64,000 nt of DNA from assembly GCA_021851715.1 (NCBI GenBank), contig JAJZCR010000011.1, positions 2,418 to 66,417 of the forward strand, written 5' to 3'. Source of the stretch: Planctomycetota bacterium. GTDB lineage: Bacteria > Planctomycetota > Phycisphaerae > WQYP01. The stretch's first letter is position 1; the number at the start of each line of letters is the position of its first letter. The notes under the pieces are model-generated. The model did no database searches and had not been told where the DNA came from. It saw only the letters and a program-made list of their open reading frames with translations. The position numbers and the translations under genes were made by a program. Positions 13,589-64,000 of the stretch are shown here, piece after piece.

Positions 13589-13741
13589 CTGATGCTCCTC
13601 CTTGAATCGGACGAGACTCAACGCAAATACTGCCCGGAATACTCTTCCCCGTTATTTAACCTTTCCACCGTTACCTCGGTGCTTGCCACTGTTGCCACTT
13701 GGCCCGAATTTGCTTTACCAGCGGGCCGGGTGAACTGCAAA

Positions 13742-14557
13742 TCATTGGAGGACCAACTCAAGATCACAATATTCCGCCAGCAAGTGGAAATTGGTTTTGG
13801 ATAATTCCGGAAAACTCGATAGTTCGACCTCTGGCAGATAGCGCGAATAATTGTAGCGCCCGATTAAAACGCGCCAAGACGGAGCCTTCGGGCCAAAATG
13901 CTCGCCCCGCGCCGTAAGCATGGAGATAGGAACGGCCATCTCCGCAGTCCAGCCGTGGTCACGATCATGCCAGTTATTTAAGGTTCCATGGACCTGCGCG
14001 GCGACCTTGAGCAGATTGGTTTTGGCCCGCAAATTGCCGGGTAAACCAAGGCGCCCCGGCCCGGGAAAGAAATAGGTGGTTTGCCGATTGTTCGGGGTAA
14101 CATACAATTCCCAATACCAGGTTTCGTTGGGCGGACGAATAAAAAGTTCACAGACATCACCCAACTGAAAATCGGGTAACCCATTTGCCGTGCCTTCCGC
14201 CACCACATCCGAATCGTCCAATTGCGCCCCCAGGTAAAGATACTTTTCATTCCAGAGCATACGAATGCTGCCGCCTTCATGGAGAACCTTGCGCCGACCA
14301 GGTTCGTCGTGAACGGGCATTGCCAGCAATTGATAAGCGGGGGCGTGCCTCCATTGCGGATCACGCAAAGTGCCATCGATTTTAACAGGATCGGCGGCGT
14401 AGGCCGCCTTGAGAACCGTGCGTACAGGTGGACTCTCCGCCGCGCTGGACAATACGGCCTTGGCCGATGCGACCGGCGATTTTCCGTCCGCGGTGATCGC
14501 GGCCAGCGCCGCCAACTGAAATAGGCTGCGTCGAGAAATAGTATCGCTGCGTTTCAT
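13742..14557 (-). CDS. Tat-exported carbohydrate-binding family 9-like (DOMON-like) protein
   Basis: SRRSLF twin-arginine signal; IDGTL.D..W, LWNEKYLY, DVCELFI and WTAEMAVP motifs. Confidence 0.75.
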   Translation of the reverse strand: MKRSDTISRRSLFQLAALAAITADGKSPVASAKAVLSSAAESPPVRTVLKAAYAADPVKIDGTLRDPQWRHAPAYQLLAMPVHDEPGRRKVLHEGGSIRMLWNEKYLYLGAQLDDSDVVAEGTANGLPDFQLGDVCELFIRPPNETWYWELYVTPNNRQTTYFFPGPGRLGLPGNLRAKTNLLKVAAQVHGTLNNWHDRDHGWTAEMAVPISMLTARGEHFGPKAPSWRVLIGRYNYSRYLPEVELSSFPELSKTNFHLLAEYCDLELVLQ

Positions 14558-51423: not shown

Positions 51424-51521
51424 ACTGGGGATTATACGCGCCGGATCGTGATTCCGGCAGTTGCTCATCGCGTGACTGCGATATTGGCCGGGGCTCCCGG
51501 CCGCATCTGTTCCACCGGGCG

Positions 51522-52286
51522 CTATGTCGCTTGTTTTCTTCCCGCGTCTGCCGGATCGTGGATGTATTTGTAAATATGGACGCCCTCCATGGTAATCATG
51601 CCTTCCTGCACCATGTTGTCCAGTGTGGGCAGAAAATTTTTAATTTTTTCCCGGGAATCAACTATTTCAATGACGATCGGCAAATCCGTGGACAGCACCA
51701 GCACCTTGTTAGTGTGCAGCACGCTGTTGGCTCCAAAGCCCATGGAGCCTTTCAGCACGGTTCCGCCTGCGATCCCGGCAGCCCGGGCCTTGTGAATAAT
51801 AGCCTCAAAAAGCGGTTTATGGTCCCATTCATCCGCTTCGCCGATGAATATGCGCAGCAGAACACCATCGTGATCAATTCGCATCAGGGCATCTCCAGTT
51901 AAATCCGCAATAGTGCTAAGAGGTTCCACGGTGGGCGGCAGTTGGCTCTGGTGAGTCGAGCCTCTTTTTCGATACATCATCACCGCGGCGCGCTCCAGCG
52001 TGACCATCCCGATTGGCATTGGTTTGGCGATTGCAGTTTGGATAAACTCGACGATTCGCCCCGCGTCATCAACCATCTCCACGATTACCGGCGAAGCGCT
52101 GGTAAGATGATAATCTGACGACGTAAGCAGCCCGCGCTGGCTAAAGCCCATGATGCCGCGCAGCACGGTGGCACCGGCGATTTTATGCCGGCTGGCCGCC
52201 TGCACCAGGCGCTCGTAAGTCGGGCTGAAATGGTACAGGTCATTGCTGCGAAAATACGCCCGAAACAGTATCTTTTCACCAACCAC
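51522..52286 (-). CDS. Tandem DUF190 (PII-like, CrcB-associated) protein
   Basis: Two repeats: GATVLRGIMGF..PVIVEMVD..GMVTLE and GGTVLKGSMGFG..LPIVIEIVD..GMITME. GTG start with a GAGGA RBS directly after crcB. Confidence 0.88.
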   Translation of the reverse strand: MVGEKILFRAYFRSNDLYHFSPTYERLVQAASRHKIAGATVLRGIMGFSQRGLLTSSDYHLTSASPVIVEMVDDAGRIVEFIQTAIAKPMPIGMVTLERAAVMMYRKRGSTHQSQLPPTVEPLSTIADLTGDALMRIDHDGVLLRIFIGEADEWDHKPLFEAIIHKARAAGIAGGTVLKGSMGFGANSVLHTNKVLVLSTDLPIVIEIVDSREKIKNFLPTLDNMVQEGMITMEGVHIYKYIHDPADAGRKQAT

Positions 52287-52302
52287 TTGCCAAAATCCTC
52301 AT

Positions 52303-52686
52303 TTAGCCATTCATGCGATGTCCCAAAATAACGCCGGCCCGCACCGCCAACAACCCCAACAGCAAACTGCCCAGAAGATAAAACATCGCCCGCAAGCCGG
52401 CACCATCCGAGAGCATGCTGTTGGATTCAAACATATACGTGGAAAATGTGGTATAGGCACCGGTAAAGCCAACAGCGATGGCGAGTCGAAAATCCTGGGA
52501 TATGGGCAACCGGTTACCGGCCACGGTGGCAAACCAGCCGAGAAACAGGCTGCCGCTGAGGTTAATGAGCATGGTTCCCACCGGAAATGGCGAACCGGTG
52601 AACAGGCGGGCGACGAAAAACCGAGCCATGGATCCAAACAGACCGCCCACGCCAACCGCCATATATTCGAATAAAACTTTTTTCAA
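52303..52686 (-). CDS. crcB: Fluoride channel Fluc/CrcB
   Basis: GGLFGSMARF, FPVGTMLINLSGS and GFTGAYTTFSTY motifs. A TTG start with a GGAG RBS gives 127 aa. Confidence 0.95.
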   Translation of the reverse strand: MKKVLFEYMAVGVGGLFGSMARFFVARLFTGSPFPVGTMLINLSGSLFLGWFATVAGNRLPISQDFRLAIAVGFTGAYTTFSTYMFESNSMLSDGAGLRAMFYLLGSLLLGLLAVRAGVILGHRMNG

Positions 52687-52781
52687 GACGCCGCTCCAGA
52701 GTTGGCCCACGAAACACAAAAACCCCGGCTGATAATTCATCCGCCGGGGTTGGTTGTCAAAACACTCCGGCAGCGTTACCC

Positions 52782-52845
52782 GCCAGGAGTCATCAGCCTC
52801 CACGGTCATAGGCCGGGGGCGGTTCAGGTGAACTCCATCACCTTC
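52782..52845 (-). ncRNA. Fluoride riboswitch 1 (crcB motif), leading crcB-DUF190
   Basis: The minus strand reads GGTGATGGAGTTCACC-TGAACCGCC...GGCTGATGACTCCTG. P1 is GGTGA/TCACC and the pseudoknot is GGAGT/ACTCC. A terminator-like hairpin and TGTTTT follow. Confidence 0.95.
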
Positions 52846-52859
52846 GATGCGATAAGCAA

Positions 52860-52889
52860 AGTCTAATGGAAGGACGATGAAGTTGTCAA
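52860..52889 (-). promoter_or_regulatory. Sigma70-like promoter TTGACA-N18-TAGACT driving riboswitch 1 and crcB
   Basis: On the minus strand, TTGACA is at 52889-52884 and TAGACT at 52865-52860, just upstream of the aptamer. Confidence 0.7.
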
Positions 52890-52942
52890 ACCAACCCTGC
52901 GGTGGCATCTTACCAGTTCAGCAGCGGGCCATCATCCGCAAA

Positions 52943-52984
52943 AAACACACTTGACTTTTAGCCGTCTATGTGTAAAGTGTGTTT
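52943..52984 (+). promoter_or_regulatory. Promoter (TTGACT-N16-TAAAGT) bracketed by a perfect 10-bp inverted repeat
   Basis: AAACACACTT (52943-52952) and AAGTGTGTTT (52975-52984) overlap the -35 and -10 upstream of the AAA gene. Confidence 0.6.
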
Positions 52985-52987
52985 ACT

Positions 52988-54121
52988 ATGATCGCCCGAC
53001 CACTATGGAATCAAAGGCTCTTCGCCGGCTGGCAAAAGGCGTCCATCATCTGGCTGACCGGACCGCGCCGGGTCGGCAAAACCGTGCTGGCGCAAAGTCT
53101 GTCCGGTGCGGAATTCCTGAACTGCGATCTGCCCGCCGTGGCCGAGCGTCTACGCGATCCGGAAATGTTTTATCGGACTTCCCAGTGCGATCTGGTAATC
53201 TTCGACGAGGTACATCAACTGCCGGATCCGAGCCGGTTGCTCAAAATCGGTGCCGACGAATTTCCCAAACTGAAAATTCTGGCTACCGGCTCGTCAACCC
53301 TGGCGGCTACGCGCAAGTTTCGCGACTCCCTGACTGGTCGCAAACGCGTGGTCAATCTGGTGCCGGTGCTTTATGAGGAGCTGTCAGCTTTTGGCGTGGT
53401 GGACGTGCGAAAGCGTCTGTTATACGGCGGATTGCCGGCCGCCTTGCTGGCGGCGGATTACGATGCCGGTTTCTACGCCGAATGGATGGATTCCTATTTT
53501 GCACGCGATGTTCAGGAACTTTTCCACTTGGAAAAGCGCTGGGCATTCCTGCGCGTGCTGGAACTTTTATTCCGCCAGAGCGGCGGGCTGCTGGATGTAA
53601 GCAAACTCGCCGCGGAAGCTCAGGTCAGCCGGCCCACGGTTGCCAATTGGCTAGATATCTACCAGACCACGCACGCGATCCATCTCATCCGGCCATTTTC
53701 CGCCGGCGGACGGCGCGAAATTATCGCCCAGCCCAAAATTTTCGGCTTCGACACCGGAATGGTATGCCATGCCCGTGGTTGGGACTCGCTGCGGCCGGAG
53801 GATTGCGGCTTGCTTTGGGAGCATCTGGTACTCGACACGTTGCTCGCCGCGGGTCTGCCGAAGATACATTTCTGGCGGGATAAAGCGGGGCGTGAGGTGG
53901 ATTTTATCATTCCACGCGGACGCGGGGCCGTCGACGCCATTGAATGCAAAATGAACCCCGCGGCCTTCGAGGTTCGCGGGCTCGAAGCGCTACGCCGTGT
54001 GTATCCCAGTGGCGATAACTACGTCGTGTGTCCGTTGGCCGGATCCGGTTATCAGCGAGTCCAGGATGGATACAAACTGACATTTCTATCCCCGACGGAA
54101 CTGCGGCCTGTGCTGGAATAA
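52988..54121 (+). CDS. AAA_14 ATPase with a DUF4143 (HTH plus PD-(D/E)XK-like) domain
   Basis: GPRRVGKT, VIFDEVH, ATGSS, SLTGR, YGGLP, HTH VSRPTVANWL and EVDFII..AIECK. Confidence 0.88.
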   Translation: MIARPLWNQRLFAGWQKASIIWLTGPRRVGKTVLAQSLSGAEFLNCDLPAVAERLRDPEMFYRTSQCDLVIFDEVHQLPDPSRLLKIGADEFPKLKILATGSSTLAATRKFRDSLTGRKRVVNLVPVLYEELSAFGVVDVRKRLLYGGLPAALLAADYDAGFYAEWMDSYFARDVQELFHLEKRWAFLRVLELLFRQSGGLLDVSKLAAEAQVSRPTVANWLDIYQTTHAIHLIRPFSAGGRREIIAQPKIFGFDTGMVCHARGWDSLRPEDCGLLWEHLVLDTLLAAGLPKIHFWRDKAGREVDFIIPRGRGAVDAIECKMNPAAFEVRGLEALRRVYPSGDNYVVCPLAGSGYQRVQDGYKLTFLSPTELRPVLE

Positions 54122-54308
54122 AGCAGGCACTGGCTGCCTTCTTGAATGTTATGGAAGCAACCGGGCACGATATTGACGAGATCATTAACGAGCCGGTCGC
54201 CGGATTTCGGGTGCTCCATTTTTACAAGCTCAATCGCTTTGTGAATCATTATTTACAGGCCAAAGAGCGGGAAGCTAGCGCTCGCCAGGAAATGGAGCAT
54301 TGGATTGT

Positions 54309-55820
54309 TCATCCGTGAGCCGGGTCAAAAATCTGGTGATACAGGTCGTTGGCGAAGCTGGTGGCCAGCGGCTCGCCGGGGTGCATTTCGAAAGTTCGAG
54401 TGCCGTCATCTTGGCGCTTGGCCCGCAAGAACAGGGCGGTATCGTGGTAGTGTTGTTGCGCGGCGTGGGCGAATTGGTACAAATGGGTTACAAACCAGAC
54501 CCGCACGCCGGCTTCCAGCAGCGCCTGGATAACCTGGTCGGCTATTTGGGAACCCTCAATTTCATTGGTAGCCGAAAATGACTCATTGAGCAGAAGGATG
54601 GCCGCCGGAGTCAGGCCGTCGACGATATCACTTAATCGAGAGAGTTCTTCATCAAACTTCCCGCGCTTCATGGTGCGGTCTTCCTGGCGTTTGTAATGGG
54701 TGAAAATAGCCGGGGCCACATCGGCCTCAAAGTGCGAGGCCGGCACAAACAGGCCGGCTTGCATCATCACCTGCGCCGCCCCCATGGCTCGTAAAAAGGT
54801 GGATTTGCCGCCCTGATTAGCGCCGGTAATAACGATCATGTTTTTATTATTCGCATTGATGCTGTTGGGCCGGACCTCGCTGCCGATCCGCAGTGCCAGG
54901 CCCGCGTCGCGCAGGTCGGTGCATTGGCAACGGCCGGTTCCGGCCGGTGTGGGAATTGGAAAGCACAGCGGCACGCCGCGGTCGGACAGCGCCCGGTGCA
55001 AATTCACACAGCCCCGGTAAAACGCCAACTCGGTGCGCAAGATTGTAAGAAAGCTCATCATGTGATCGGCGGATTGGGCCAGGGCATTGGCGGCCGTATT
55101 GAGTCCGCGGTTGGTCAATTCGGAAAGGGCTTGATGGCCCGCTTCATCCCGCGGATCCAGGCGAAACGCATAGCGGGCCGGACCACGGGTAAAAAGGCGC
55201 TGAAAAAAATTGCCGGGCTGGTTATTCGTGCGGCGCAGAGTGTAGTTGTGGCCTTCATTACGGGCACCAAGCTGAGCACTGATCACTGTGCCATCGTGAA
55301 ATTTCAGTTGTCCAAGGTCATGGCGCACCTGGTTGAAATAATCCGGGGTTAACTCATGGTTGATGCGTGTGAAGAGGGCTTGGAATCCGTCCGATTCGAA
55401 TTGGGGCTGATGCGCCCGCACCAGTTGCTTGAGTTCGGCAAAAATATCCAGCAGCATATTGAGCAGGTCCACAGCCTCGTACAAAATGCCGGAAGGGGAC
55501 CGGCTGAAAAGGCCCAACCATTGGCGCTGCCGGCGCTCGCCGGCCTCGAGGGCCAGCTTGGCCAATCGCTCGATCAGCGGCACGTTTGTCAGGCAGTCGC
55601 GCAGCACGGCCTGCCGATAAAGAACCGTATCGACATCATTTTGAACGCCGCCGGCAAACACGCGTTGGACCACCGTGGCTATCAGTTCATCCTGGCCGGC
55701 CATGGCGGCGGCCACCGTTGGCAGTTCCAGGTCGGCGAATAGTGTTGGCATGCGAATTGCCGAAGAGGGATGCGTGTCGAAAACAAAATCGCGATTGGGG
55801 TGCAGCAGATAGACCTTCAT
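54309..55820 (-). CDS. MutS-related ATPase B (domain V only, MutS4-like)
   Basis: YRQAVLRD, ITGANQGGKSTFLR, MMQAGLFVPA, IFTH, LLLNESFSATN and FVTH; no mismatch-binding domain. Confidence 0.88.
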   Translation of the reverse strand: MKVYLLHPNRDFVFDTHPSSAIRMPTLFADLELPTVAAAMAGQDELIATVVQRVFAGGVQNDVDTVLYRQAVLRDCLTNVPLIERLAKLALEAGERRQRQWLGLFSRSPSGILYEAVDLLNMLLDIFAELKQLVRAHQPQFESDGFQALFTRINHELTPDYFNQVRHDLGQLKFHDGTVISAQLGARNEGHNYTLRRTNNQPGNFFQRLFTRGPARYAFRLDPRDEAGHQALSELTNRGLNTAANALAQSADHMMSFLTILRTELAFYRGCVNLHRALSDRGVPLCFPIPTPAGTGRCQCTDLRDAGLALRIGSEVRPNSINANNKNMIVITGANQGGKSTFLRAMGAAQVMMQAGLFVPASHFEADVAPAIFTHYKRQEDRTMKRGKFDEELSRLSDIVDGLTPAAILLLNESFSATNEIEGSQIADQVIQALLEAGVRVWFVTHLYQFAHAAQQHYHDTALFLRAKRQDDGTRTFEMHPGEPLATSFANDLYHQIFDPAHG

Positions 55821-57373
55821 GGCGTGAGCCTCCGCTTGATTTGCGCATAGGTGAGATGATGTTGCTGCGCGACGGCCAGCGCATACGCGTTGCCGTCGGC
55901 GGGGTGCCTTTCCAGGCGGAACGTGCGCTGGGTCGGGTCAGCCGGGGCAACTCCGGCGACCACGCTGACGGTGTGGTCGTTGAGACGCGAAAGCTCATCA
56001 AGGAAGGTCACGCAGACGCAAAGCGTCTGAAGTTCCGCGAGTTTTGCAATCATTCGTGTGGCCAGGTATAGCCCGTCCCGGGCGCTGGTGGAGGAAAATA
56101 TCTCGTTGAGGATCACCATGCTGTGCCCGGTGGCATGGCGGACAATATCGCGCAGACGCAGCAGATCATCCTGCAGCTTGCCGCGAAGATCCGCAAAATT
56201 TTCCGGCCGCTCAAAATGGGTGAAAATTCCGTCGACTAAACCAAGCTTGGCTTCCACGGCTGGAACGGTGCAGCCCAGGCTGGCCAGGTAATGCAGTTGG
56301 CCGAGCATCCGGGCGAAGGTGGTTTTGCCGCCCTGATTGGGTCCGGAAACCACGATAATTCGCTCTGGATCATTGAGCGTGAGATCATTGCAAACCGGTG
56401 CCGCACCGGAAGGCAGCAAGTGGGTCGCCAGGGCCAGGTCGAAGCCTTCGCGCACCGCCAGCGATTTGGCATTTACCAGAATTTGCGGATAACAGAACCT
56501 CAGACCAGTTTGCGCCACGCGGCCGGTGAATTCGACCCAAGCCATGAAAAACTGAATTTCACGTTCACATTGCACCACGATGTCGGCGGGAAAATCAGGG
56601 TACTTGGCGCAAAAGGTCTCCAAGTCGGCGAACAGATCGGGGTGCAGCCGGGCCACGAGAGCCAGAATTCGCACCTCCACGTGGTTCATGGAGTCGCCCG
56701 GGGCCAGGGCTGCCGTGTAGTCGCGGACGGTGCCCTGCTGAAACCGGGCGAAGGTGTGCTGGACTTCCTGGCCGAAGTCCGCTTCACCGGCATAGCGGCT
56801 CACGGTAACCAGGTCCTCCTGAATACGTATGCAGTAGATAATGGCCCGTAGACGTGATTGAATATTTTCCGCCATTGCGGTCAGGGTTTGAAAGTTCTCT
56901 GATTGCACGTACTCTCCGAGCCGGGTACGAAAATCCCGCAGCCCCCGGGACTCAAGCGGCATGGGTCCAAGAGCATGGTGCAAGGCGGCGACGGCCCGGC
57001 TGTAAACCGTCGCGGCCTCAAGAATATAGCCGTGCTTGTGGATCGCGAAATGGATGGTTTCGGCTGTGGCAAGATGCCGCCGCATCCTGGCCATCTGACC
57101 GGAAAAGGCCCGAAACGCCGCCAGCGTGGGGCCCGCCTGGACATCGCGCATGATTTCCTGACGGTAAGCGATTTCCTCGGCGGTTTTCAGAGGTTGATAA
57201 AATAGCTCGGCAAGATGATATTCATCCCGTCCGGCCAGAGCGGCCGCCACAATTTCATCGAGATGCAGGTCGGCAAAGAACGGCGGCTCCGCGGGCGAAG
57301 GCGCTGCGGCGGCCGCGAAAAAGGTCGCCGGAAAAAGTATGGAATCACCGGATCTGGGCTGGACCGAGTGCAT
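55817..57373 (-). CDS. MutS-related ATPase A (domain V only, MutS4-like)
   Basis: FFADLHLD, YRQEIMRD, VSGPNQGGKTTFAR, LGCTVPA, IFTHF and VILNEIFSST; ATGA overlap with the partner gene. Confidence 0.88.
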   Translation of the reverse strand: MHSVQPRSGDSILFPATFFAAAAAPSPAEPPFFADLHLDEIVAAALAGRDEYHLAELFYQPLKTAEEIAYRQEIMRDVQAGPTLAAFRAFSGQMARMRRHLATAETIHFAIHKHGYILEAATVYSRAVAALHHALGPMPLESRGLRDFRTRLGEYVQSENFQTLTAMAENIQSRLRAIIYCIRIQEDLVTVSRYAGEADFGQEVQHTFARFQQGTVRDYTAALAPGDSMNHVEVRILALVARLHPDLFADLETFCAKYPDFPADIVVQCEREIQFFMAWVEFTGRVAQTGLRFCYPQILVNAKSLAVREGFDLALATHLLPSGAAPVCNDLTLNDPERIIVVSGPNQGGKTTFARMLGQLHYLASLGCTVPAVEAKLGLVDGIFTHFERPENFADLRGKLQDDLLRLRDIVRHATGHSMVILNEIFSSTSARDGLYLATRMIAKLAELQTLCVCVTFLDELSRLNDHTVSVVAGVAPADPTQRTFRLERHPADGNAYALAVAQQHHLTYAQIKRRLTP

Positions 57374-57401
57374 GGCTCACCACCGATTCAATCAACTTTT
57401 C

Positions 57402-57462
57402 GGTAGGAGTCATTAGTGCGGCGTTAATCGTGCCGCACGGTTTCGGCGAACTCCATCGCCCA
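57402..57462 (-). ncRNA. Fluoride riboswitch 2, leading the MutS-like pair
   Basis: The minus strand reads GGCGATGGAGTTCGCC-GAAACC-GTGCGGC(ACGATTAAC)GCCGCAC-TAATGACTCCTACC. It ends about 30 nt before the ATG at 57373. Confidence 0.95.
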
Positions 57463-57480
57463 CCAACACGTATGCAACTG

Positions 57481-57510
57481 ATTGTACGGGGACGCCCCCG
57501 GCAGTGTCAA
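57481..57510 (-). promoter_or_regulatory. Sigma70-like promoter TTGACA-N18-TACAAT driving riboswitch 2
   Basis: On the minus strand, TTGACA is at 57510-57505 and TACAAT at 57486-57481. Confidence 0.75.
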
Positions 57511-57754
57511 GATTCCCAACCCCTGGATTTTACGCGTTTTGCAGCAATCGTTGGCAGCGAACCGTCTTCCAGAGAGCGCCTGGCGGCCAAGGTGGCCCCC
57601 CACCAGTGCCGACCGGCTACGCAGTGCGGGCGGGGACGCCGGCGCTGCCGGGAATCTCCTTCAATATGGGGATTGGGCACGCATTGCGGGGCAGTTGCCA
57701 CAATTTATGGCCACACCCGTTGCCCTCATGCACGGCGCGCTGTAAATGGGCGTG

Positions 57755-57783
57755 TTGAATTTGGCCTGACGCAAGCGTAGCAT
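57755..57783 (+). promoter_or_regulatory. Putative promoter TTGAAT-N17-TAGCAT driving riboswitch 3
   Basis: TTGAAT at 57755-57760 and TAGCAT at 57778-57783, just upstream of the aptamer. Confidence 0.5.
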
Positions 57784-57796
57784 ACAGTAGAGGGAT

Positions 57797-57850
57797 TAAG
57801 GCGATGGAGTTCGCCGGAACCGCTCCGCACCGGGGCTGATGACTCCTGCC
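57797..57850 (+). ncRNA. Fluoride riboswitch 3, leading the metallophosphoesterase
   Basis: GGCGATGGAGTTCGCC-GGAACC-GCTCCG(CAC)CGGGGC-TGATGACTCCTGCC. Confidence 0.95.
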
Positions 57851-57974
57851 ACGTGCGAATGGGCCGATTGGCGGGTATCAGGAAACGGGCCGCGTTTTCC
57901 CCGCATTTTAATTTTGGCCGATAATTTGGCTCAAAGAGGCCAGGGCACGCGGACTTTTTGCAGGAGCGATGCCG

Positions 57975-58688
57975 ATGCGTGTGCTGTTGATTTCTGATCT
58001 TCATGGCAATCCGTGGGCTTTAAGAGCCGTCGCCGCCGACTGCGGCACGTTTGACTACGTGCTGTGCGGCGGAGATGTGGTAAATTACGGGCCGGATCCC
58101 GGAGCGTGCATCACCTGGTTGCGGGGCCACAATGCGATAACCGTGTGCGGCAACCATGATTACGCCGTGGCCCATAACCAGCATCCCCATGCCAATCCGG
58201 CCAAGGCCCAACTGGCGCTGGCCATGCGCGATTGGACGTTGGGGCAGCTAAGCATTGAGGATATCCACTGGTTAAAGCGCCTGCCGCTGCGCCTGACGTG
58301 GGATTGTGGCGGCACTACGTTTGACGTGGTTCACGCGTCGCGGATGGATCCACTCTACGATTACCGTTTGACGCCCGACCTTTCCATCAACAAACTGACG
58401 GAGTATCTGGGCAATGGTCCCCTGGCGGATGTACTGATGGTGGGCCACACACATTTGCCTTACGTACGTCCCTATATCAACAGACAGCTCGTGAATCCCG
58501 GCTCCGTGGGACAACCGCTGGATGGTGATCCCAGGGCGTCTTATGCGGTGTGGAAGGATGGCACGATTTCCCTGCGGCGCGTTGAATATCCGGTGCAAGA
58601 TGTCGTCGCCGCGTTGGATAAAATAAAGGCTCCCCTCGTACGCAAAGCGGACTTGAAACGCGTTTTGGAAACAGGCAAACTCTTTTAA
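57975..58688 (+). CDS. Calcineurin-like metallophosphoesterase (Metallophos_2 / YfcE-like)
   Basis: DLHGN, GDVVNYGP, GNHD, VH, GHTH and NPGSVGQPLDGDPRASY motifs; GCAGGAG RBS 8 nt before the ATG at 57975. Confidence 0.92.
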   Translation: MRVLLISDLHGNPWALRAVAADCGTFDYVLCGGDVVNYGPDPGACITWLRGHNAITVCGNHDYAVAHNQHPHANPAKAQLALAMRDWTLGQLSIEDIHWLKRLPLRLTWDCGGTTFDVVHASRMDPLYDYRLTPDLSINKLTEYLGNGPLADVLMVGHTHLPYVRPYINRQLVNPGSVGQPLDGDPRASYAVWKDGTISLRRVEYPVQDVVAALDKIKAPLVRKADLKRVLETGKLF

Positions 58689-60709
58689 TCCAAGTCGGGG
58701 TGCCGATCAGCGGCGGCACTGAGTTGGGCCAGGGCCTGTTCCAAAACGGCAATGTCCGCAAGGATATTACCGTCGCAATGACCACGGCAAGCCGTGGCTG
58801 CCGCACGGAGTACCGCCGCGGCAGCATGATAGTGGATGCTTAAGTCGCCCAGCATGCCGCCACGCCAGTGCCAAAGCCTTTTATTATAATCCAGAAGCAC
58901 CGCCCCAAGACGCGATTGAACCGATTTTCGGAACTGCTCGGCCAGAACATGCCGTCGCATGACCACACTTATTTTCGTCCATGTCGGCACATGCGGCCGT
59001 GCGGCAGCGGCGATTGATGCGGGATCAAAAATGGGTAATCCCGCAATCGGAGGAAGCTCTCCGGGGGAAGGGCAAGCCAGCAGATCGGCGGCCTTCCTGA
59101 GCGACCGTTCCACCTGGTCACGGACGTCGGTTAGCTGCCGGATGATATCCCCGGCGGTCTGGGTGACACGGGCCCGGGCGATGGCGGAGATCTCTTGGGA
59201 TGCCTTTTCCACATCCCACGAGCCTTGCGCAAGGGTTTGCGCCGTTCGATCAATGATGTCATCCGCTAACCGCCGCGGAGTGGGTAGACTTGCGGCGCTG
59301 ACGCGCCCGGCGGCGTCCAGAACCATGGTGCCGTGCGCCAGCAAGACGGCAACATTGCCGTCGTCATCGTTCCGCGTTGTCGCATCCGCCGCTTGAGCTC
59401 GCCGTTTGAGAATATCAGTCACAGTGCCACCAAGCTGCTTAAGTTTATGCTGGATGGAAGCAGCACGAAGCGCAGCAGCCCGCCCAAGCAGCGGGGCTAA
59501 AGACTGGTCAAACCAGTCCCATGTCATTGGTGCCTGCGGCGCACGCACACTCACGGCATGAATCTCAGGAGGGTTATCTAAATGATGACGGAGCTGGTCC
59601 TGGGCGTATGTCAGCACGGAGGCAAGATCATGTTCCGGGAGCAGATCCGCTTTGGTCAAGAGCACCATAATTTCCCCTCCGGCCCGCCGCAAGGCCGCAA
59701 CCAATTCAATATCCATATCGGTAAGTCCGACCGCGGCGCTGGCCAGCACCAGGCCGATATCGCAACGGGGCAGGTAGGCCAATGCGTCAGCCGATCCTTG
59801 TCCACCCAATGCTCCAAGTCCGGGCGTATCCACAAAAGCTATCCCCCGCACCATACGAGTACAGGGCAATTCGATACCGACTTCCGTTACATGTTTACAA
59901 TTGTCCGGATTGCCGATTTGGGTGACGAAATCTTCAATTTGAGTCGGCTGAATAACCATACTTTTATCCGATCCAGTTTTGACCGTAACTTTCAGGACGG
60001 GGCCATAAATAAGCCGCGTGGGAATCGTGGTAACGGGCACCGCGCCCACGGGCAGGATGTCATGCTGCCAGAGAAAATTAAGAAGCGATGATTTGCCGGC
60101 ACTGACCCGGCCAAAAACGGCAATTTCAAGCTCGGTGTGCTCCATACGCTCCACAAGCACGGCCAGCGCCGGGCGAATTTCCACCAAGTTCCGGCGCGTT
60201 ATGATTTCAGCCAGTTGGGCGGCCAGAGCGGCGGTCTGGTCGGGATTACCCAGGCGGTGCAGCCGCGCTGAAATATTGCCGCCAGGTGGTTCCGCCAAGC
60301 TTTTGCCCAGTTGATCGATGATATTGAGAAGTTCGGCGGATATGGTTTGCAGATCCTCCCGGGCCGATTCATCGACGGGTCCATAACCGACCATGTACTG
60401 CGGGCGTATCTCCTCAAGCGTATTGCTCACCGCCAGAAGCGTGCTGCGGAAAGCCCAGAGCGCACTGATTTGCGGCTCGGGGATGGTCAGACCATGGGCG
60501 CGAATAATTCTGGCCATGGCTCGCCGCAACTCCTTAAGATACACGGCAATGAGGTACTCCTGATCGGGCGTGAAATCATATTTCAAGGTCTGAAATAGAG
60601 AATCTTTTTGGCTCTGCCGGGCGGCCGCAAATGTCCGACTCAGAGTTTCATCCACGTGCTGAAATGTTAAAAGCAGGTGTCGCCGATGATTTTCATTAAG
60701 GCCCGGCAT
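58685..60709 (-). CDS. Bacterial dynamin-like GTPase with an N-terminal helical extension
   Basis: G1 GRVSAGKSS, G2 PVTT, G3 DTPG and G4 TKAD, with a helical C-terminus; GGAG RBS and a 23-nt gap after eno. Confidence 0.85.
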   Translation of the reverse strand: MPGLNENHRRHLLLTFQHVDETLSRTFAAARQSQKDSLFQTLKYDFTPDQEYLIAVYLKELRRAMARIIRAHGLTIPEPQISALWAFRSTLLAVSNTLEEIRPQYMVGYGPVDESAREDLQTISAELLNIIDQLGKSLAEPPGGNISARLHRLGNPDQTAALAAQLAEIITRRNLVEIRPALAVLVERMEHTELEIAVFGRVSAGKSSLLNFLWQHDILPVGAVPVTTIPTRLIYGPVLKVTVKTGSDKSMVIQPTQIEDFVTQIGNPDNCKHVTEVGIELPCTRMVRGIAFVDTPGLGALGGQGSADALAYLPRCDIGLVLASAAVGLTDMDIELVAALRRAGGEIMVLLTKADLLPEHDLASVLTYAQDQLRHHLDNPPEIHAVSVRAPQAPMTWDWFDQSLAPLLGRAAALRAASIQHKLKQLGGTVTDILKRRAQAADATTRNDDDGNVAVLLAHGTMVLDAAGRVSAASLPTPRRLADDIIDRTAQTLAQGSWDVEKASQEISAIARARVTQTAGDIIRQLTDVRDQVERSLRKAADLLACPSPGELPPIAGLPIFDPASIAAAARPHVPTWTKISVVMRRHVLAEQFRKSVQSRLGAVLLDYNKRLWHWRGGMLGDLSIHYHAAAAVLRAAATACRGHCDGNILADIAVLEQALAQLSAAADRHPDLD

Positions 60710-60732
60710 GACAACTCCGGCAAGGGGTACAG

Positions 60733-62004
60733 TTACACGGCCAGCGGATTGCGAAACTCGGCGGCAGAGCCAAGCTCGGCCTCAATTTCCAACAGGCGGT
60801 TGTATTTGGCGATGCGCTCAGACCGGCAGGCGGAGCCGGTCTTAATCTGGCCGCCGCCCATGGCAACAGCAAAGTCAGCAAGGAAGGCATCTTCCGTTTC
60901 GCCGGAGCGATGAGAGATGATCCACTTCCAGCCGGCCTGTTTACACATTCGCACCGCCTCAATGGTTTCGGTTACGGTGCCGATTTGATTGAGTTTGATC
61001 AGTACCGCATTGGTGCTGTGCTCGCGAATACCGCGGGCGATAAAGCGCGTGTTGGTAACGTAAATATCATCGCCGACGATTTGGACGCGGTGGCCGAGAG
61101 CGGCGGTTTGAGCCTTGAAGCCGTCCCAGTCATTTTCATCCAAGCCATCCTCCAGAGACACGATCGGGTATTGATCGAGCCAGGCGGCGTAGAGCTGACA
61201 CATTTCGTCGCTGGTTTTGACACCCTCGCCGGACTTATCCAGATGATATTTATTCTCACGGTAAAATGAGCTGGCGGCAGGATCAAGGGCCAGCGCAATT
61301 TGTCGGCCCGGTTGATAACCTGCGGCGGTAATAGCCTGCATGATCAGGTCGGGGGCTTCGCGGTTGTGTTTTAAATTCGGGGCAAAGCCACCCTCATCGC
61401 CCACCGCAGTGGAGTAACCGCGGGCGTGCAGGATGGACTTAAGGGCATGAAATGTTTCCACACCCCAGCGCAGGGCCTCGGCGAACGAGGGAGCGCCCAC
61501 GGGCATGATCATAAATTCCTGGAAATCCAGTGAATTGTCCGCGTGCTTTCCGCCATTGAGGATATTCATCATCGGCACCGGCAGGCGTACCGCCTCCATA
61601 CCTCCCAGATACTGGTACAGGGGTACGCGGCGCGCCATGGCCGCCACGCGCGCCACCGCCATGGAAGTGCCCAGGATGGCGTTGGCTCCCAGGCGACTTT
61701 TATTAGGTGTGTCATCGGCTTCAATAAGTACCCGATCCACCTCTTCCTGGCGGGTGACATCCATGCCTGCCAGACGTGCAGCGATGGTAGTGTTCACCGC
61801 AGCCACAGCTTTCAATACGCCCTTGCCACCGTAGCGATTTTTGTCGTGATCGCGAAGCTCCACCGCTTCATGTTCACCGGTGGAGGCACCAGACGGTACG
61901 GTGGCGCTGGCCTTTGTACCGTCGTGGAGGCAGACGGTGACTTTTAACGTGGGCGTGCCGCGGGAATCAAGTATTTCCAGCGCGCCAACGGATGCGATGT
62001 CCAT
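60733..62004 (-). CDS. eno: Enolase (phosphopyruvate hydratase)
   Basis: [44 protein letters not shown] and [12 protein letters not shown] are all intact. Confidence 0.98.
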
Positions 62005-62014
62005 GAGAAGCCTT

Positions 62015-64000
62015 TCACAATAAACGGTTCAGCACCAGGACAATAATCAGCAACAGCAGCACCCAGGCGGCGTAGGCGTTGACCACGGCGGGGCGATGGA
62101 TGCGGGCGATCAGGCTGGAGAGGAATTTTACCACGGCCACCAGCGGGCGCAGAAATAGCCGATCCACAATATAGGTATCGCGCGGCGGCTTGCGGATGGC
62201 GGTGCGGAAATGGCCTGCCACGGCGACCTGGGAGTCTTCGCGCTGGGCGGGGCCGAAGATGGAACGAAAAATAATCCGCACCGGATTGGAAAATCCGGTG
62301 GCACTGTAGGACATTTCCGGCCAGAGCCGGCGCAGGCCGCCCGCCCACGGTTCGCTTATACGTACTCTGCGCCGGCGCGTACCCAGCCGCACCAGCAGAA
62401 AAGTCAGGAACATAATGCCAGCCAGCGTTACCGCCAGGTAAAAAGTGGACATGGCGTAGACCACGGGATTACTGGCGGTGCCTTGATGCAGCACCACCAG
62501 GCCGCGCGCCGGAATCAGCGTTTTTCCCACGTCCGCGCCGATTTTGGCAAAACCGGTGAGAAAGGCCTGGTGAAATTGGGCGTTGCCGTGGCGGAGCGTG
62601 AAAAACGGGGGGACCAGGGCGTTGGTAGCGCGGTGATGCGTCAGCGGAGCCATGGCTCGATCCACCAGCGGTATAACCCAGGTGGCACCCACTCCTAAAG
62701 CCAGGCAGATGCCGGCAAGCATGCCCATGGCCCAACGCATGGAAGGGGGACTCTCGCGTGCCTGTTGGGCAGAGTCGCTGCGGGGCTGGCCGAGAAAGCT
62801 CATGGCGAACGCTTTCACAAAGCAGGTGATGGCCAGGGCCGCGGTTAGCGCCAACACCGCGCCGCAAAGCGCGAAAATCACACGTGCCAGCGGCGAGGTC
62901 AGGTCGGTGGAGCGCAAAATAGTTTGCAGCGTCAGCCATTCGCTGACAAAGCCATTGAGCGGCGGCAGCGCCGAGATGGCCAGAGTGCCGATCAAAAAAA
63001 GCAGGGCCGTCATGGGCATGCGTTTGAGCAGCCCGCCAAGGCGATTGATGTCGCGTGTGCCGGTGCCGTAATCAATGGCCCCGGCTCCGAGGAACAACAG
63101 GGTTTTGTACGCAGAGTGGTTGATCATATGGTAAATGGCCACCACCCAGGCAATGGCCGCGATGGTGGGCATGTGATAAGCGCCGAACACCATTCCGGCA
63201 CCCACATCCACCGCTACGATGCCGAGATTTTCGATGGAGCTATGCGCGAGCATGCGCTTGAGATCGTTATCAATGGTCGCGTAAAGAATGCCCAGCAGGG
63301 CCGAGATGCCGCCGATGGCCAGAACAATAAGGCCCGGCCCGGCGGTTACGGCCGGCATGACGATGGCGTCAAACCGGATGATGCCATAGATGCCGAAATT
63401 CAGCAGACTCCCCGATAAAATCGCCGAGATGTTCGCCGGTGCCACCGGGTGGGCACGCGGCAGCCAGGAGCTAACCGGAACCAGGCCGGCCTTGACGGAA
63501 AAGCCCCCGAGAATAAGCAGAAAAATGATCCATCGCCAGGTGGCGGGCAGGTGCGTCATGGCGCGGTGCAAGGCGGGAAAGCCGATGTGGCCACCGGCCC
63601 AGGCGGTCATCAGCAGCAGACCCACGCCAGCGAGGATAATGCCCGCTTCGTTCATGGCCAGGAAAAGGTAGGCGGCCCGGCGATGGTCTTCATGGCGATG
63701 TTCCAGGGTAATGGGAAAACTGGCCAGAGCCGACATTATCCGCCATGAGAACAGAAAGGTAATGACGTCGCCGGCGGCGAGCACCAGGGCGCAGGCGGCC
63801 AATAACAGATGAAAAAAAATGCCAAATCCACGGATGTTGTAATGCTCCGGATAGCGGTTCATGTAGCTGGCGGAAAACAGATACGCCGGCAAAAAGGAGA
63901 TGCCCAGTGCCAATACAAATATCGCGGATACCAAGTCCAGTCGCAGCCGCAGCAAACCCAGCAGCGGCAAATGCCACAGATGAACGGCCATGGGCCGGTG
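62015..64000 (-). CDS. HyfB/HycC-like proton-conducting membrane subunit (hydrogenase-4 / formate hydrogenlyase-type); likely 5' partial
   Basis: [62 protein letters not shown] and [10 protein letters not shown] motifs. The frame stays open to the window edge. Confidence 0.88.

What the first reader, a model, noticed from the sequence alone, without database searches (positions are those of the whole stretch)
51522..64000. Fluoride-stress island: three fluoride riboswitches wiring a Fluc channel to a MutS-like pair and a phosphoesterase, beside a hyfB-eno-dynamin operon
Seen: three copies of the crcB-motif aptamer within about 5 kb (52782-52845 -, 57402-57462 -, 57797-57850 +). They show compensatory changes (GGTGA/TCACC versus GGCGA/TCGCC, and three different P3 stems), and each has its own sigma70-like promoter and heads a different transcription unit. 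Established: these riboswitches sense F-, Fluc exports F-, enolase is F- inhibited, and HF crosses membranes at low pH. Enolase, formate-hydrogenlyase-like and MutS-like genes have been listed downstream of such riboswitches, but their roles are largely uncharacterised. Inference: this is a multi-layer fluoride response going beyond export. It would combine efflux, backup of metal-fluoride-poisoned phosphoryl enzymes, an unknown heterodimeric ATPase, membrane repair and ion/proton balancing. A fourth riboswitch is predicted upstream of the hyf operon, outside the window.
Basis: partly seen in the sequence, partly recalled or inferred. Interest (0 to 1): 0.9.

Follow-up and report, generated by a model that had tools for sequence, protein, structure and literature searches.

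The report
Four-riboswitch fluoride defence gene island
Four fluoride-sensing RNA switches sit within about 21 kb and control a fluoride channel, a spare enolase, a phosphoesterase, an orphan MutS-like ATPase pair, a dynamin-like GTPase and a hydrogenase-like membrane complex that has lost its metal site.

Summary
Three RF01734 fluoride aptamers lie in the window, at 55.1, 49.0 and 44.9 bits against a cut-off of 34. It heads NuoH/HyfE/HyfF/NuoCD/NuoB/HyfB-like genes, then enolase, then a dynamin-like GTPase. A same-genus genome carries this operon on one contig.

New details:
- The "formate hydrogenlyase" lacks the N-terminal CxxC nickel-iron ligands and has no cysteine in the C-terminal stretch, so it is Ehr-like and not a hydrogenase. 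In metagenomes, 22 of 23 dereplicated clusters of this clade have the riboswitch upstream.
- The MutS-like pair fits the orphan MutS4A/B subfamily. The A-then-B order holds in 18 of 19 loci from many phyla.
- The enolase is an extra paralogue.

Gene associations of this kind are in print. This is therefore a rich new member of a known regulon. It also gives a testable physiological context for Ehr complexes and for MutS4. Induction by fluoride and all protein roles remain inferred.

The parts
51522..52286 (-). Tandem DUF190 protein (254 aa, two DUF190 domains), second gene of the crcB unit
   Evidence: Pfam PF02641 scores 194.7 bits with 2 stretches. PDB relatives are only the structural-genomics proteins PH1503 and TM0021. 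It follows crcB in relatives and in metagenome loci. DUF190 is fused to a CLC channel in relative G020.
52303..52686 (-). crcB (Fluc fluoride channel, 127 aa from the TTG start at 52686)
   Evidence: Pfam PF02537 scores 85.5 bits. NCBIfam TIGR00494 scores 85.5 bits against a cut-off of 80.45. It is the only crcB found in the genome by tblastn.
52712..52786 (-). RS1 expression platform, made of two successive hairpins. The first uses the aptamer's 3' tail. The second is followed by a U-run.
   Evidence: The terminator scan finds 52786-52767. The MFE fold shows both hairpins, z = -3.1. Both are kept in the same-genus leader, with changed letters in the first. The relay reading (anti-antiterminator) is inference.
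52777..52851 (-). Fluoride riboswitch aptamer RS1
   Evidence: RF01734 at 44.9 bits, E = 3.3e-09.
52860..52889 (-). Promoter-like site for RS1 and crcB
   Evidence: TTGACA-18-TAGACT, 10 of 12 matches.
54309..55820 (-). MutS4B-like ATPase (503 aa)
   Evidence: MutS_V is the only Pfam hit, 74.8 bits. All NCBIfam MutS1, MutS2 and KamC models score far below their cut-offs. Its start overlaps the stop of the A gene by 4 nt. It follows the A homologue in 18 of 19 loci.
55817..57373 (-). MutS4A-like ATPase (518 aa)
   Evidence: MutS_V is the only MutS domain hit, 76.9 bits. The AF2 model has pLDDT 84.5 and pTM 0.82. It aligns over its whole length with the MutS, MSH3 and MutS2 core at TMq 0.46-0.58. 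The Walker B aspartate position is Asn in all 31 aligned homologues.
57365..57400 (-). RS2 expression platform. The aptamer's 3' tail can pair with the Shine-Dalgarno-like stretch just before the ATG of MutS4A.
   Evidence: The MFE fold pairs the tail with the purine-rich stretch before the start codon, z = -3.0. The aptamer ends 24 nt before the ATG. Translational control is inferred.
57397..57469 (-). Fluoride riboswitch aptamer RS2
   Evidence: RF01734 at 49.0 bits, E = 1.5e-10.
57481..57510 (-). Promoter-like site for RS2 and the MutS4 pair
   Evidence: TTGACA-18-TACAAT, 11 of 12 matches.
57791..57855 (+). Fluoride riboswitch aptamer RS3
   Evidence: RF01734 at 55.1 bits, E = 1.6e-12.
57969..58688 (+). 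Metallophosphoesterase (239 aa, YfcE-like)
   Evidence: Pfam Metallophos_2 scores 72.6 bits. The best PDB relative is 3rqz, named only 'Metallophosphoesterase'. TIGR00040 scores 52.2 bits, below its cut-off of 56.25. It follows a riboswitch in G002, G016, G018 and G021.
58685..60709 (-). Dynamin-like GTPase (674 aa), last gene of the RS4 operon. It has an N-terminal domain of unknown family (residues 1-150), a GTPase domain and a C-terminal part.
   Evidence: Pfam Dynamin_N scores 69 bits. PDB relatives are Campylobacter DLP1/2 (5owv), IniA (6j72) and BDLP (2j68). The N-domain also occurs as separate ORFs of 146-162 aa in relatives and as Atlas clusters.
60733..62004 (-). Enolase paralogue (423 aa)
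   Evidence: TIGR01060 scores 647.7 bits against a cut-off of 300. A second enolase, 60% identical, lies on contig C30. Island enolases form a clade apart from the other copies.
62015..64000 (-). HyfB-like antiporter-type membrane subunit, last gene of the Ehr-like complex. The rest of the operon and RS4 lie beyond the window end.
   Evidence: Pfam Proton_antipo_M scores 155.6 bits. The best NCBIfam model is 'hydrogenase 4 subunit B' at 525 bits, below its cut-off of 667. Upstream genes and RS4 are described.

Best explanation
This is a fluoride-stress regulon packed into one island of about 21 kb, with four separately switched transcription units. Each unit starts with a canonical fluoride aptamer acting as an ON switch.

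- Unit 1: RS1, then the Fluc channel CrcB, then a tandem DUF190 protein. This unit exports fluoride.
- Unit 2: RS2, then MutS4A and MutS4B, a translationally coupled pair of MutS-core ATPases without mismatch-binding or nuclease domains. They probably form a heterodimer.
- Unit 3: RS3, then a YfcE-like metallophosphoesterase.
- Unit 4: RS4 (just outside the window), then a six-gene hydrogenase-4-like membrane complex, an extra enolase and a dynamin-like GTPase.

The membrane complex has lost its [NiFe] ligands and has no formate dehydrogenase partner. It is an Ehr-type complex, not a formate hydrogenlyase.

Shown here: the aptamers, the gene identities, the contig join, the missing metal ligands, the paralogy of the enolase, and the recurrence of the same gene set under riboswitches across a bacterial family and in many environmental contigs.

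Inferred logic: at low pH, HF diffuses into the cell and dissociates. Fluc lets fluoride out but leaves the proton behind. The Ehr-like complex, with its antiporter-type subunits, would restore proton or ion balance. Extra enolase and phosphoesterase would make up for metal-fluoride-inhibited enzymes. The dynamin-like protein would act on the membrane. The MutS4 pair would act as an ATP-driven clamp on a still unknown polymer.
For: Aptamers. Three RF01734 hits lie in the window. The genome has 4 in all, the fourth on C138. Pair covariation holds over 51 aptamers.

Expression platforms. A terminator-like hairpin overlaps the RS1 tail. The RS2 tail pairs with the ribosome-binding stretch.

Contig join. 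The printed ends of C2 and C138 coincide apart from one A, and a single NuoC-NuoD frame crosses the junction. Contigs in 4 runs of 1 study (2 may be the source) run 130 nt past the C2 end and show no indel. The same-genus genome G002 has RS-NuoH-HyfE-HyfF-NuoCD-NuoB-HyfB-Eno-DLP, then MPE with its RS, then RS-CrcB-DUF190x2, all on one contig.

Tight gene spacing. There are 10 nt between hyfB and eno and 23 nt between eno and the dynamin-like gene.

No hydrogenase site. The stretch that aligns with the two N-terminal cysteines of E. coli HycE has serines. The C-terminal stretch that aligns up to the first cysteine of Pyrococcus MbhL has no cysteine. The same holds in relatives and in 79 of 80 metagenome homologues. 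One window was mis-anchored and could not be read.

Riboswitch-complex linkage. Of 33 metagenome loci with the NuoH-like start and at least 350 nt upstream, 30 have a riboswitch on the same strand within 600 nt, 2 more have one at 638 nt, and 1 has none. After dereplication, 22 of 23 clusters at 90% identity have one.

MutS4 pair. A is followed by B in 18 of 19 loci from many phyla including Thermoplasmata; in the 19th the contig ends. A riboswitch lies directly upstream on the same strand in 8 of 19.

Family-wide. 31 of 36 genomes of the same family carry RF01734. Clusters of 3-6 switches occur in G002, G016, G018, G020, G021 and G030.

Enolase. A second copy exists, and the island copies form their own clade.

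Published gene associations. mutS and formate hydrogen lyase are listed (passages of PMC2864571). Enolase, FHL and phosphoesterases are listed (passages of PMC11139923).
Against: No expression data exist, so induction by fluoride is untested for every unit.

RS3 has no promoter that passes the scan. Its downstream fold is not better than shuffles, z = -1.1. RS4 has no terminator-like site, so its mechanism of control is open.

The contig join rests on an inexact overlap and on synteny, not on a spanning read that I could see.

The MutS4 pair with RS2 is absent from the equivalent locus of the same-genus genome G002. It has no riboswitch in 9 of 19 loci elsewhere. It is therefore an accessory, mobile part rather than a fixed member.

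The 80 metagenome loci were picked as the best relatives of this clade's large subunit. They say nothing about other Ehr or hyf clades.

The island enolase clade has support of 91/90, below the tool's star level.

Nothing here shows what the Ehr-like complex oxidises or pumps.
Confidence: 0.82

Rival explanations
1. The hyf-like complex is a working formate hydrogenlyase or energy-converting hydrogenase. It would relieve fluoride-linked acid stress by turning protons into H2, as the published label 'formate hydrogen lyase' implies.
For: The subunits are most like hydrogenase-4 subunits B, E and F and HycE/HycG. The literature lists 'formate hydrogen lyase' among riboswitch-associated genes.
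Against: The two N-terminal Ni-Fe cysteines of HycE align with serines, and the C-terminal stretch has no cysteine. The same holds across relatives and in 79 of 80 metagenome homologues. No FdhF-, HycB- or Hyp-like gene is in the operon. All NCBIfam hydrogenase models score below their cut-offs.
Confidence: 0.04
2. The four units are only co-located, not a functional system. Riboswitch-led genes drift together by chance or by hitch-hiking on mobile DNA. Several of them (MutS4 pair, dynamin-like protein, Ehr-like complex) serve general stress or housekeeping roles unrelated to fluoride.
For: An AAA_14/DUF4143 gene without a riboswitch sits in the middle of the island. The MutS4 pair with RS2 is missing at the same place in G002, which keeps a remnant of that gene. 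MutS4 pairs are patchily spread over phyla, and 9 of 19 loci lack any riboswitch.
Against: Each unit has its own aptamer, so co-regulation does not depend on adjacency. The same gene set recurs under riboswitches in different orders in at least six genomes of the family and in metagenome contigs. Of 23 Ehr-like clusters, 22 carry the switch.
Confidence: 0.08
3. On the role of the MutS4A/B pair alone: it is a DNA-repair or recombination clamp, induced because fluoride or acid stress damages DNA or inhibits the normal mismatch repair ATPases.
For: The whole-length fold matches the MutS, MSH3 and MutS2 core, domains III to V with a short clamp-like hairpin. Weinberg 2010 proposed a DNA-damage link. 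A canonical MutS exists elsewhere in the genome, so the pair would be an addition.
Against: No mismatch-binding domain, connector domain or nuclease domain is present. The clamp region is much reduced and partly low-confidence. The Walker B aspartate position is Asn in all 31 homologues. Other MutS-domain-V proteins act outside DNA repair: NCBIfam has a lysine aminomutase reactivase, KamC, and the PDB holds ribosome-bound MutS2 entries (their ribosome role is recalled).
Confidence: 0.35
4. One or more of the four aptamers is a variant that senses something other than fluoride.
For: None found. This is a formal possibility, because riboswitch classes can have variants with changed specificity (recalled).
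Against: All four match the full 64-position model above the cut-off and keep the nearly invariant positions of the 51-sequence alignment. One of them heads crcB itself.
Confidence: 0.03

Closest known systems
Fluoride riboswitch regulon (crcB motif, RF01734; Weinberg 2010, Baker 2012)
   Same: The aptamer class and the ON-switch logic are the same. So are the gene classes listed downstream: crcB, enolase, mutS, 'formate hydrogen lyase' and phosphoesterases (passages seen; Baker 2012 itself was not held).
   Different: Here four switches lie in about 21 kb, each on its own unit. The 'FHL' proves to lack metal ligands, the mutS genes are the MutS4A/B pair, and a dynamin-like GTPase is included. 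I found no mention of a dynamin-like protein in the passages searched (0 occurrences of 'dynamin').
Ehr (energy-converting / Ech-hydrogenase-related) complexes
   Same: Both have group-4-hydrogenase-like large and small subunits without the CxxC Ni-Fe motifs, together with NuoH-, HyfE- and antiporter-like membrane subunits. Papers state that the function of Ehr is unknown (passages seen).
   Different: This clade is headed by a fluoride riboswitch in 22 of 23 dereplicated clusters. None of the Ehr papers listed contains the word fluoride, and one search found no paper holding fluoride, riboswitch and hydrogenase-like together. No formate dehydrogenase lies next to it, unlike the FDH-Ehr idea of PMC6349859. 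Membership by phylogeny was not tested.
MutS4A/MutS4B subfamily (Lin, Nei and Ma 2007, PMC2190696)
   Same: Both have only the MutS ATPase-type domain by sequence. The two paralogues are adjacent, with the stop of A overlapping the start of B. They are scattered over distant bacteria and Thermoplasma-type archaea, and the function is unstudied (here).
   Different: The paper did not link them to fluoride. Here the pair is riboswitch-led in 8 of 19 loci and in the family's islands. No named MutS4 reference sequence was compared, so membership is by features only.
Bacterial dynamin-like proteins (Campylobacter DLP1/2, IniA, BDLP)
   Same: The GTPase domain is of dynamin type.
   Different: Similarity covers the GTPase domain only. 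This protein has an extra N-terminal domain of about 150 aa and unknown family, which also exists as a separate small protein, and it is under riboswitch control.

Membership tests
Fluoride riboswitch (RF01734) | Covariance-model score at or above the curated gathering score over the full model | tested here: met
   55.1, 49.0 and 44.9 bits in the window and 49.8 bits on C138, against a cut-off of 34. All cover positions 1-64 of 64.
Fluoride riboswitch (RF01734) | P1, P3 and the pseudoknot are kept by compensatory changes | tested here: met
   92.7% of cells are paired. Ten of 13 pairs change on both sides, and 0 of 500 shuffles reach that. The structure beats all slid registers (on alignment A1).
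Fluoride riboswitch (RF01734) | Binds fluoride and turns downstream genes on | not testable with these tools
   Only structure predictions of the expression platforms are available.
Fluc / CrcB fluoride channel | Score above the curated cut-off of the equivalog model | tested here: met
   TIGR00494 scores 85.5 bits against 80.45. Pfam PF02537 scores 85.5 bits against 32.9.
[NiFe] hydrogenase group 4 / formate hydrogenlyase | Two CxxC pairs in the large subunit that hold Ni-Fe | tested here: not met
   The two N-terminal cysteines of HycE align with serines. The C-terminal stretch that aligns with the start of the MbhL motif has no cysteine. The second C-terminal position is read by extension beyond the printed alignment.
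[NiFe] hydrogenase group 4 / formate hydrogenlyase | Formate dehydrogenase and ferredoxin-type partner genes in the operon | tested here: not met
   The operon genes are NuoH-, HyfE-, HyfF-, NuoCD-, NuoB(+Fer4)- and HyfB-like, then enolase and the dynamin-like gene. The rest of the genome was not searched for fdhF.
Ehr (hydrogenase-related) complex | Group-4-like large and small subunits without Ni-Fe ligands, plus antiporter-like membrane subunits | tested here: met
   The definition comes from passages.
Ehr (hydrogenase-related) complex | Placement within the Ehr clades of a large-subunit tree with named references | not tested
   No named reference sequences were at hand.
MutS4A/MutS4B | ATPase (MutSac) domain only; adjacent paralogues; stop of A overlaps start of B | tested here: met
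   MutS_V is the only MutS domain hit. The two genes overlap by 4 nt at 55817-55820. The A-then-B order holds in 18 of 19 loci.
MutS4A/MutS4B | Groups with named MutS4 sequences in a tree | not tested
   No named reference sequences were compared. Homologues in Thermoplasmata MAGs (L023, L024) fit the published distribution.
MutS1 / MutS2 (mismatch repair, endonuclease MutS2) | Mismatch-binding domain I (MutS1) or Smr nuclease domain (MutS2); equivalog score above cut-off | tested here: not met
   No such Pfam domains are found. TIGR01070 scores 87.6 against 641.7, and TIGR01069 scores 64 against 400.
Enolase | Equivalog score above cut-off, with both domains present | tested here: met
   TIGR01060 scores 647.7 against 300. 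Enolase_N and Enolase_C are both found.
Bacterial dynamin-like protein | Dynamin-type GTPase domain | tested here: met
   Dynamin_N scores 69 bits against 27. PDB relatives are DLP1/2, IniA and BDLP.
Bacterial dynamin-like protein | Helical stalk with a membrane-binding paddle; membrane remodelling | not tested
   The C-terminal 280 aa were not modelled here.
YfcE-type metallophosphoesterase | Score above the subfamily cut-off | tested here: not met
   TIGR00040 scores 52.2 bits against 56.25. Superfamily membership is met: Metallophos_2 scores 72.6 against 27.

The most novel reading that the evidence does not exclude
This clade of Ehr complexes, which has no known function and no Ni-Fe site, would be a dedicated fluoride-stress machine. 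It would be a redox- or gradient-driven proton/ion pump that cells switch on through a fluoride riboswitch, to undo the proton load and loss of membrane potential caused by HF entry and Fluc export. The orphan MutS4A/B pair, with its naturally altered magnesium-binding Walker B motif, would be a fluoride-stress NTPase clamp acting on something other than mismatches. That would give first physiological roles to two orphan families at once.
Probability: 0.35. Interest if true: 0.75.

Novelty: new member of a known kind. Interest (0 to 1): 0.55.

Why it matters
Fluoride riboswitches and their common passengers have been known since 2010-2012. Most of the passengers are still unexplained.

This island, and the many relatives found here, sharpen three of them into testable questions.

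1. The 'formate hydrogenlyase' is an Ehr complex that cannot be a hydrogenase. The papers read here say the function of Ehr complexes 'remains unknown'. A near-obligate fluoride switch in front of one clade gives a condition under which to study it.

2. The MutS4A/B pair, unstudied since its naming in 2007, gets an inducing signal and a structural model.

3. DUF190 is tied to both kinds of fluoride exporter. It sits next to Fluc here and is fused to CLC in a relative.

The habitat label of the runs that hold this DNA is mine drainage (one study, two runs possibly the source). That fits the idea that HF entry at low pH drives this elaborate response.

Tried and rejected
Baker et al. 2012 could not be read (not held). 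What I say of it rests on the 2024 review's passages and on recall.

Supplementary files of papers were not opened. The supplements of Weinberg 2010 and Baker 2012 may already list the gene neighbourhoods described here.

My regular expression for the aptamer missed most riboswitches in relatives. I dropped it in favour of the coordinates and of model R1.

An HMM of the dynamin-like protein's N-domain found it only in family relatives and in L007. It found none downstream of HyfB in the 80 metagenome loci. The idea that it is a general accessory subunit of the complex was therefore dropped.

The Atlas search by features gave no usable hit for that domain. The search by structure gave only unnamed clusters, commonest in Acidobacteriota. 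I treat this as a lead on taxonomy, not a result.

Expression: no RNA holder is listed among the sequencing runs.

Read laying showed contigs running 130 nt past the C2 end, but it does not print what follows. It therefore did not by itself prove the join.

The exact-overlap test printed no exact overlap. The overlap is inexact by one A and was read from the printed ends.

Complex prediction was not used for the MutS4 pair. MutS-family dimers are textbook, so a pass would not have changed my odds. The heterodimer is inferred. The search for homologous proteins, the search of protein representatives and search_dna_similar were not used.

Literature searches for a printed link between Ehr or hydrogenase-like complexes and fluoride riboswitches found none. 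This covers only the held library.

Full report
OBSERVATION

An Rfam scan of the whole window finds three fluoride riboswitch aptamers (RF01734) above the gathering score of 34 bits:
- 57791-57855 (+), 55.1 bits
- 57469-57397 (-), 49.0 bits
- 52851-52777 (-), 44.9 bits

Each matches all 64 model positions. The only other hit in the window is a tRNA.

I aligned 51 aptamers: the four of this genome, 35 from relatives and 12 from MutS-like loci elsewhere. I then counted pairs for P1, the pseudoknot and P3. 92.7% of cells form standard pairs, against 82.8% in shuffles. Ten of 13 pairs change on both sides, and 0 of 500 shuffles reach that. The true register beats all six slid registers.

GENES (Pfam; NCBIfam)

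- RS1 heads crcB (TIGR00494, 85.5 bits against a cut-off of 80.45) and a 254-aa protein made of two DUF190 domains.
- RS2 heads two paralogous proteins of 518 and 503 aa whose only MutS-family hit is MutS domain V. Their genes overlap by 4 nt.
- RS3 heads a 239-aa Metallophos_2 phosphoesterase.
- On the minus strand to the window end lie a Dynamin_N GTPase (674 aa), an enolase (TIGR01060, 647.7 bits) and a HyfB-like antiporter-type subunit. They are 23 and 10 nt apart.
- The AAA_14/DUF4143 gene at 52979-54121 (+) has no riboswitch and is not part of the system.

THE FOURTH RIBOSWITCH

The window is G000:C2:2418-66417, and C2 ends 2 kb further on. The genome has four RF01734 hits in all. The fourth is at C138:3868-3936 (-), 49.8 bits, with a promoter-like site (10 of 12 matches) just upstream.

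It is followed on C138 by four genes:
- a NuoH-like gene,
- a HyfE-like gene,
- a HyfF-like gene,
- a NuoC-like frame that runs off the contig start.

C2 ends with a NuoD-like frame open at its 5' end, then NuoB-like (with one Fer4 motif), then HyfB-like.

The printed last bases of C2 and first bases of C138 coincide over about 64 nt apart from one extra A in a homopolymer. One NuoC-NuoD frame reads across the junction. The script's test for an exact overlap found none; the overlap is inexact by that one base.

Contigs in four runs of one study (two may be the source) run 130 nt past the C2 end without an indel.

The same-genus genome G002 carries the whole arrangement on one contig:
- RS, NuoH, HyfE, HyfF, NuoCD, NuoB, HyfB, Eno, DLP;
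- then the phosphoesterase with its own RS;
- then RS, CrcB, DUF190x2.

THE COMPLEX IS NOT A HYDROGENASE

Against PDB sequences the large subunit is closest to E. coli HycE (7z0s_E, E = 4.4e-36) and Pyrococcus MbhL (6cfw_L). In the printed alignment the two N-terminal cysteines of HycE face serines. The C-terminal stretch that faces the start of the MbhL cysteine motif holds no cysteine, and none follows to the end of the protein.

The same holds in four relatives. One of them has a single cysteine at a neighbouring position.

The operon has no formate dehydrogenase, HycB or Hyp gene. No NCBIfam hydrogenase or Nuo model reaches its cut-off.

By the definition given in the papers I read in passages, this is an Ehr-type complex. 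Those papers say its function is unknown.

HOW GENERAL IS THE SWITCH-COMPLEX LINK?

An alignment of four large subunits was used to scan metagenome contigs.

A covariance model built from the 51 aptamers found 83 matches at E up to 0.01 in their 730,486 bases.

Of 33 loci that hold the NuoH-like start and at least 350 nt upstream:
- 30 have a riboswitch on the same strand within 600 nt,
- two more have one at 638 nt,
- one (L133) has none.

After clustering the large subunits at 90% identity (54 clusters), 22 of 23 evaluable clusters have the switch.

In 79 of 80 loci the stretch facing the HycE cysteine pair has no CxxC. One window was mis-anchored and could not be read. All 80 C-termini lack the paired cysteines, though many have one cysteine shifted by a position.

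These loci were chosen as relatives of this clade. The result describes the clade, not all Ehr complexes.

Flanks of the longer loci recurrently hold RS-MutS pair, RS-CrcB/DUF190, RS-enolase, RS-phosphoesterase and dynamin-like genes. Of 16 cluster representatives of at least 14 kb, 12 have two or more switches and 8 have the MutS pair.

THE FAMILY

RF01734 was found in 31 of 36 other genomes of the same family, and in 6 of 24 genomes of other families of the class.

Clusters of switches are common: five in 10.5 kb in G018, six in 18 kb in G021, four in G030, and three each in G002, G016 and G020.

The units are shuffled, but the gene set is the same (with the coordinates):
- G018: RS-MPE-Eno; RS-CrcB-DUF190-GTPase; RS-MutS pair; RS-hyf-like.
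- G021: RS-MPE-Eno-hyf-like in one operon.

Further riboswitch-led genes in relatives are listed here:
- phosphofructokinase (RS-PFK-Eno-DLP in G016 and G020),
- cyclopropane-fatty-acid synthase,
- a CLC channel fused to DUF190,
- PAP2,
- an MFS transporter,
- a small protein of unknown family.

THE MutS-LIKE PAIR

Homologues of the first gene were found in 19 genome loci. They come from Desulfobacterales, Anaerolineae, Spirochaetota, Synergistetes, Thermotogaceae, Actinomycetota, Proteobacteria and Thermoplasmata, at 34-49% identity.

The second paralogue follows directly in 18 of 19; in the 19th the contig ends.

RF01734 lies directly upstream on the same strand in 8 of 19. Two more loci have a switch elsewhere, and nine have none.

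Lin, Nei and Ma (PMC2190696, passages) defined MutS4A/MutS4B by exactly these features: ATPase domain only, adjacent genes with overlapping stop and start, a few distant bacteria plus Thermoplasma and Ferroplasma, and function unstudied. I file the pair there by features. No tree with named references was made.

An AlphaFold model of MutS4A from 31 sequences has pLDDT 84.5 and pTM 0.82. Over its whole length it matches the MutS, MSH3 and MutS2 core at TMq 0.46-0.58. It has helical levers, a very short clamp-like hairpin and the ATPase domain. It has no mismatch-binding, connector or nuclease domain.

Both proteins keep Walker A. The Walker B aspartate position, as aligned with MSH3, is Asn in all 31 MutS4A homologues and by motif in MutS4B.

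What the pair clamps is unknown. DNA is the default guess. MutS-domain proteins with other clients exist (KamC model; ribosome-bound MutS2 entries, their role recalled).

The pair and RS2 are absent from the equivalent G002 locus, so they are an accessory module.

ENOLASE, DYNAMIN-LIKE PROTEIN, DUF190

The genome has a second enolase, 60% identical, on C30. Four of five relatives searched have both kinds. In a 15-row tree the island copies group together (91/90) apart from the other copies (100/100) and sit on longer branches.

The dynamin-like protein resembles Campylobacter DLP1/2, IniA and BDLP in the GTPase domain only. Its first 150 residues are a domain of no known family. That domain also occurs as separate ORFs of 146-162 aa after HyfB in G001 and G021, in G005, and beside a MutS4 pair in L007. 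It also appears as Atlas clusters commonest in Acidobacteriota.

A different, cysteine-rich dynamin-like protein is riboswitch-led in G018, G021 and G030.

DUF190 has only structural-genomics relatives.

EXPRESSION PLATFORMS (predictions only)

RS1: a hairpin uses the aptamer's 3' tail and is followed by a short U-run. A second strong hairpin with a long U-run follows. Both are conserved in G002. By eye, the 3' arm of the first can pair with the 5' arm of the second, which suggests a relay.

RS2: the tail pairs with the ribosome-binding stretch 24 nt downstream, which suggests translational control.

RS3: a hairpin with a U-run lies downstream, but the fold is no better than shuffles.

RS4: a long hairpin without a U-run.

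WHAT IS KNOWN AND WHAT IS NEW

Already in print:
- mutS and formate hydrogen lyase downstream of the crcB motif (PMC2864571, passages);
- enolase, FHL, antiporters and phosphoesterases as parts of a 'multilayered response' (PMC11139923, passages).

Not found in the held library:
- that the riboswitch-led 'FHL' lacks the metal ligands and is an Ehr complex;
- that one Ehr clade is almost always riboswitch-led.

In the one review checked (PMC11139923), 'dynamin' and 'DUF190' do not occur. The paper search on DUF190 and fluoride listed one relevant work, held as paper and preprint, which names DUF190 in fluorination clusters.

Supplements and Baker 2012 were not seen.

VERDICT

The system is a well-developed member of a known kind. 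It gives useful new handles on two orphan protein families. All functional roles remain inferred.

Noticed in passing
L062:14342-16351 (relative G020): A 669-aa protein fuses a Voltage_CLC channel domain to a C-terminal DUF190 domain. It lies in a riboswitch-led unit next to a second crcB-like ORF. DUF190 is thus tied to both kinds of fluoride exporter.
   Followed up: partly
window 55817-57373 (-), residue 423; window 54309-55820 (-): The Walker B aspartate position of MutS-family ATPases is Asn in MutS4A. It is invariant in 31 homologues. By motif it is also Asn in MutS4B.
   Followed up: partly
window 52712-52786 (-): The crcB leader has two successive hairpins, the second with a long U-run. 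Both are conserved in the same-genus genome. This may be a three-part relay rather than the usual single terminator.
   Followed up: partly
window 52979-57510 compared with L060:3600-4200 (G002): The MutS4 pair with RS2 and an intact AAA_14/DUF4143 gene are present here. At the same place in the same-genus genome they are absent, and only a 29-aa remnant of the AAA_14 gene remains. This is an insertion or deletion between close relatives.
   Followed up: partly
window 50425-51468 (-): A 347-aa membrane-like ORF with no Pfam family lies 54 nt after the DUF190 gene. It is conserved there in G002 (85% identity) but not in other islands. It may be co-transcribed with crcB.
   Followed up: partly
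L055:15286-15555; L057:7774-8172; L061:2952-3317: A small conserved ORF of about 90-130 aa and no known family directly follows a fluoride riboswitch in three relatives: G018, G021 and G030.
   Followed up: no
L063:11464-12648; L062:10215-11339; L057:12187-13704; L055:10991-12442; L062:16538-17254: In relatives, phosphofructokinase (RS-PFK-Eno-DLP) and a PAP2 protein lie in riboswitch-led units, and a cyclopropane-fatty-acid synthase follows a riboswitch in G021 (in G018 it only sits inside the island). They hint at glycolytic and membrane-lipid arms of the response.
   Followed up: no
L021 (Sphingomonas MAG), 2505-14254: Four fluoride riboswitches lie within 12 kb around a MutS4 pair in an unrelated phylum.
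   Followed up: no
L133: This is the only one of 33 evaluable metagenome loci of the Ehr-like complex with no riboswitch found upstream.
   Followed up: no
End of contig C2 and start of C138 (beyond the window): The assembly breaks inside the NuoC-NuoD gene at a run of A that has 6 bases in one contig and 7 in the other. Only the 6-A version keeps the frame.
   Followed up: partly
L005:2580-3446 (-): The NuoB-like small subunit carries an N-terminal extension with one ferredoxin-type cysteine motif. By eye it keeps only three of the usual four cluster cysteines.
   Followed up: no
window 54001-64000: The four sequencing runs that hold this stretch are labelled mine drainage metagenome. They belong to one study, and two may be the source.
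   Followed up: no
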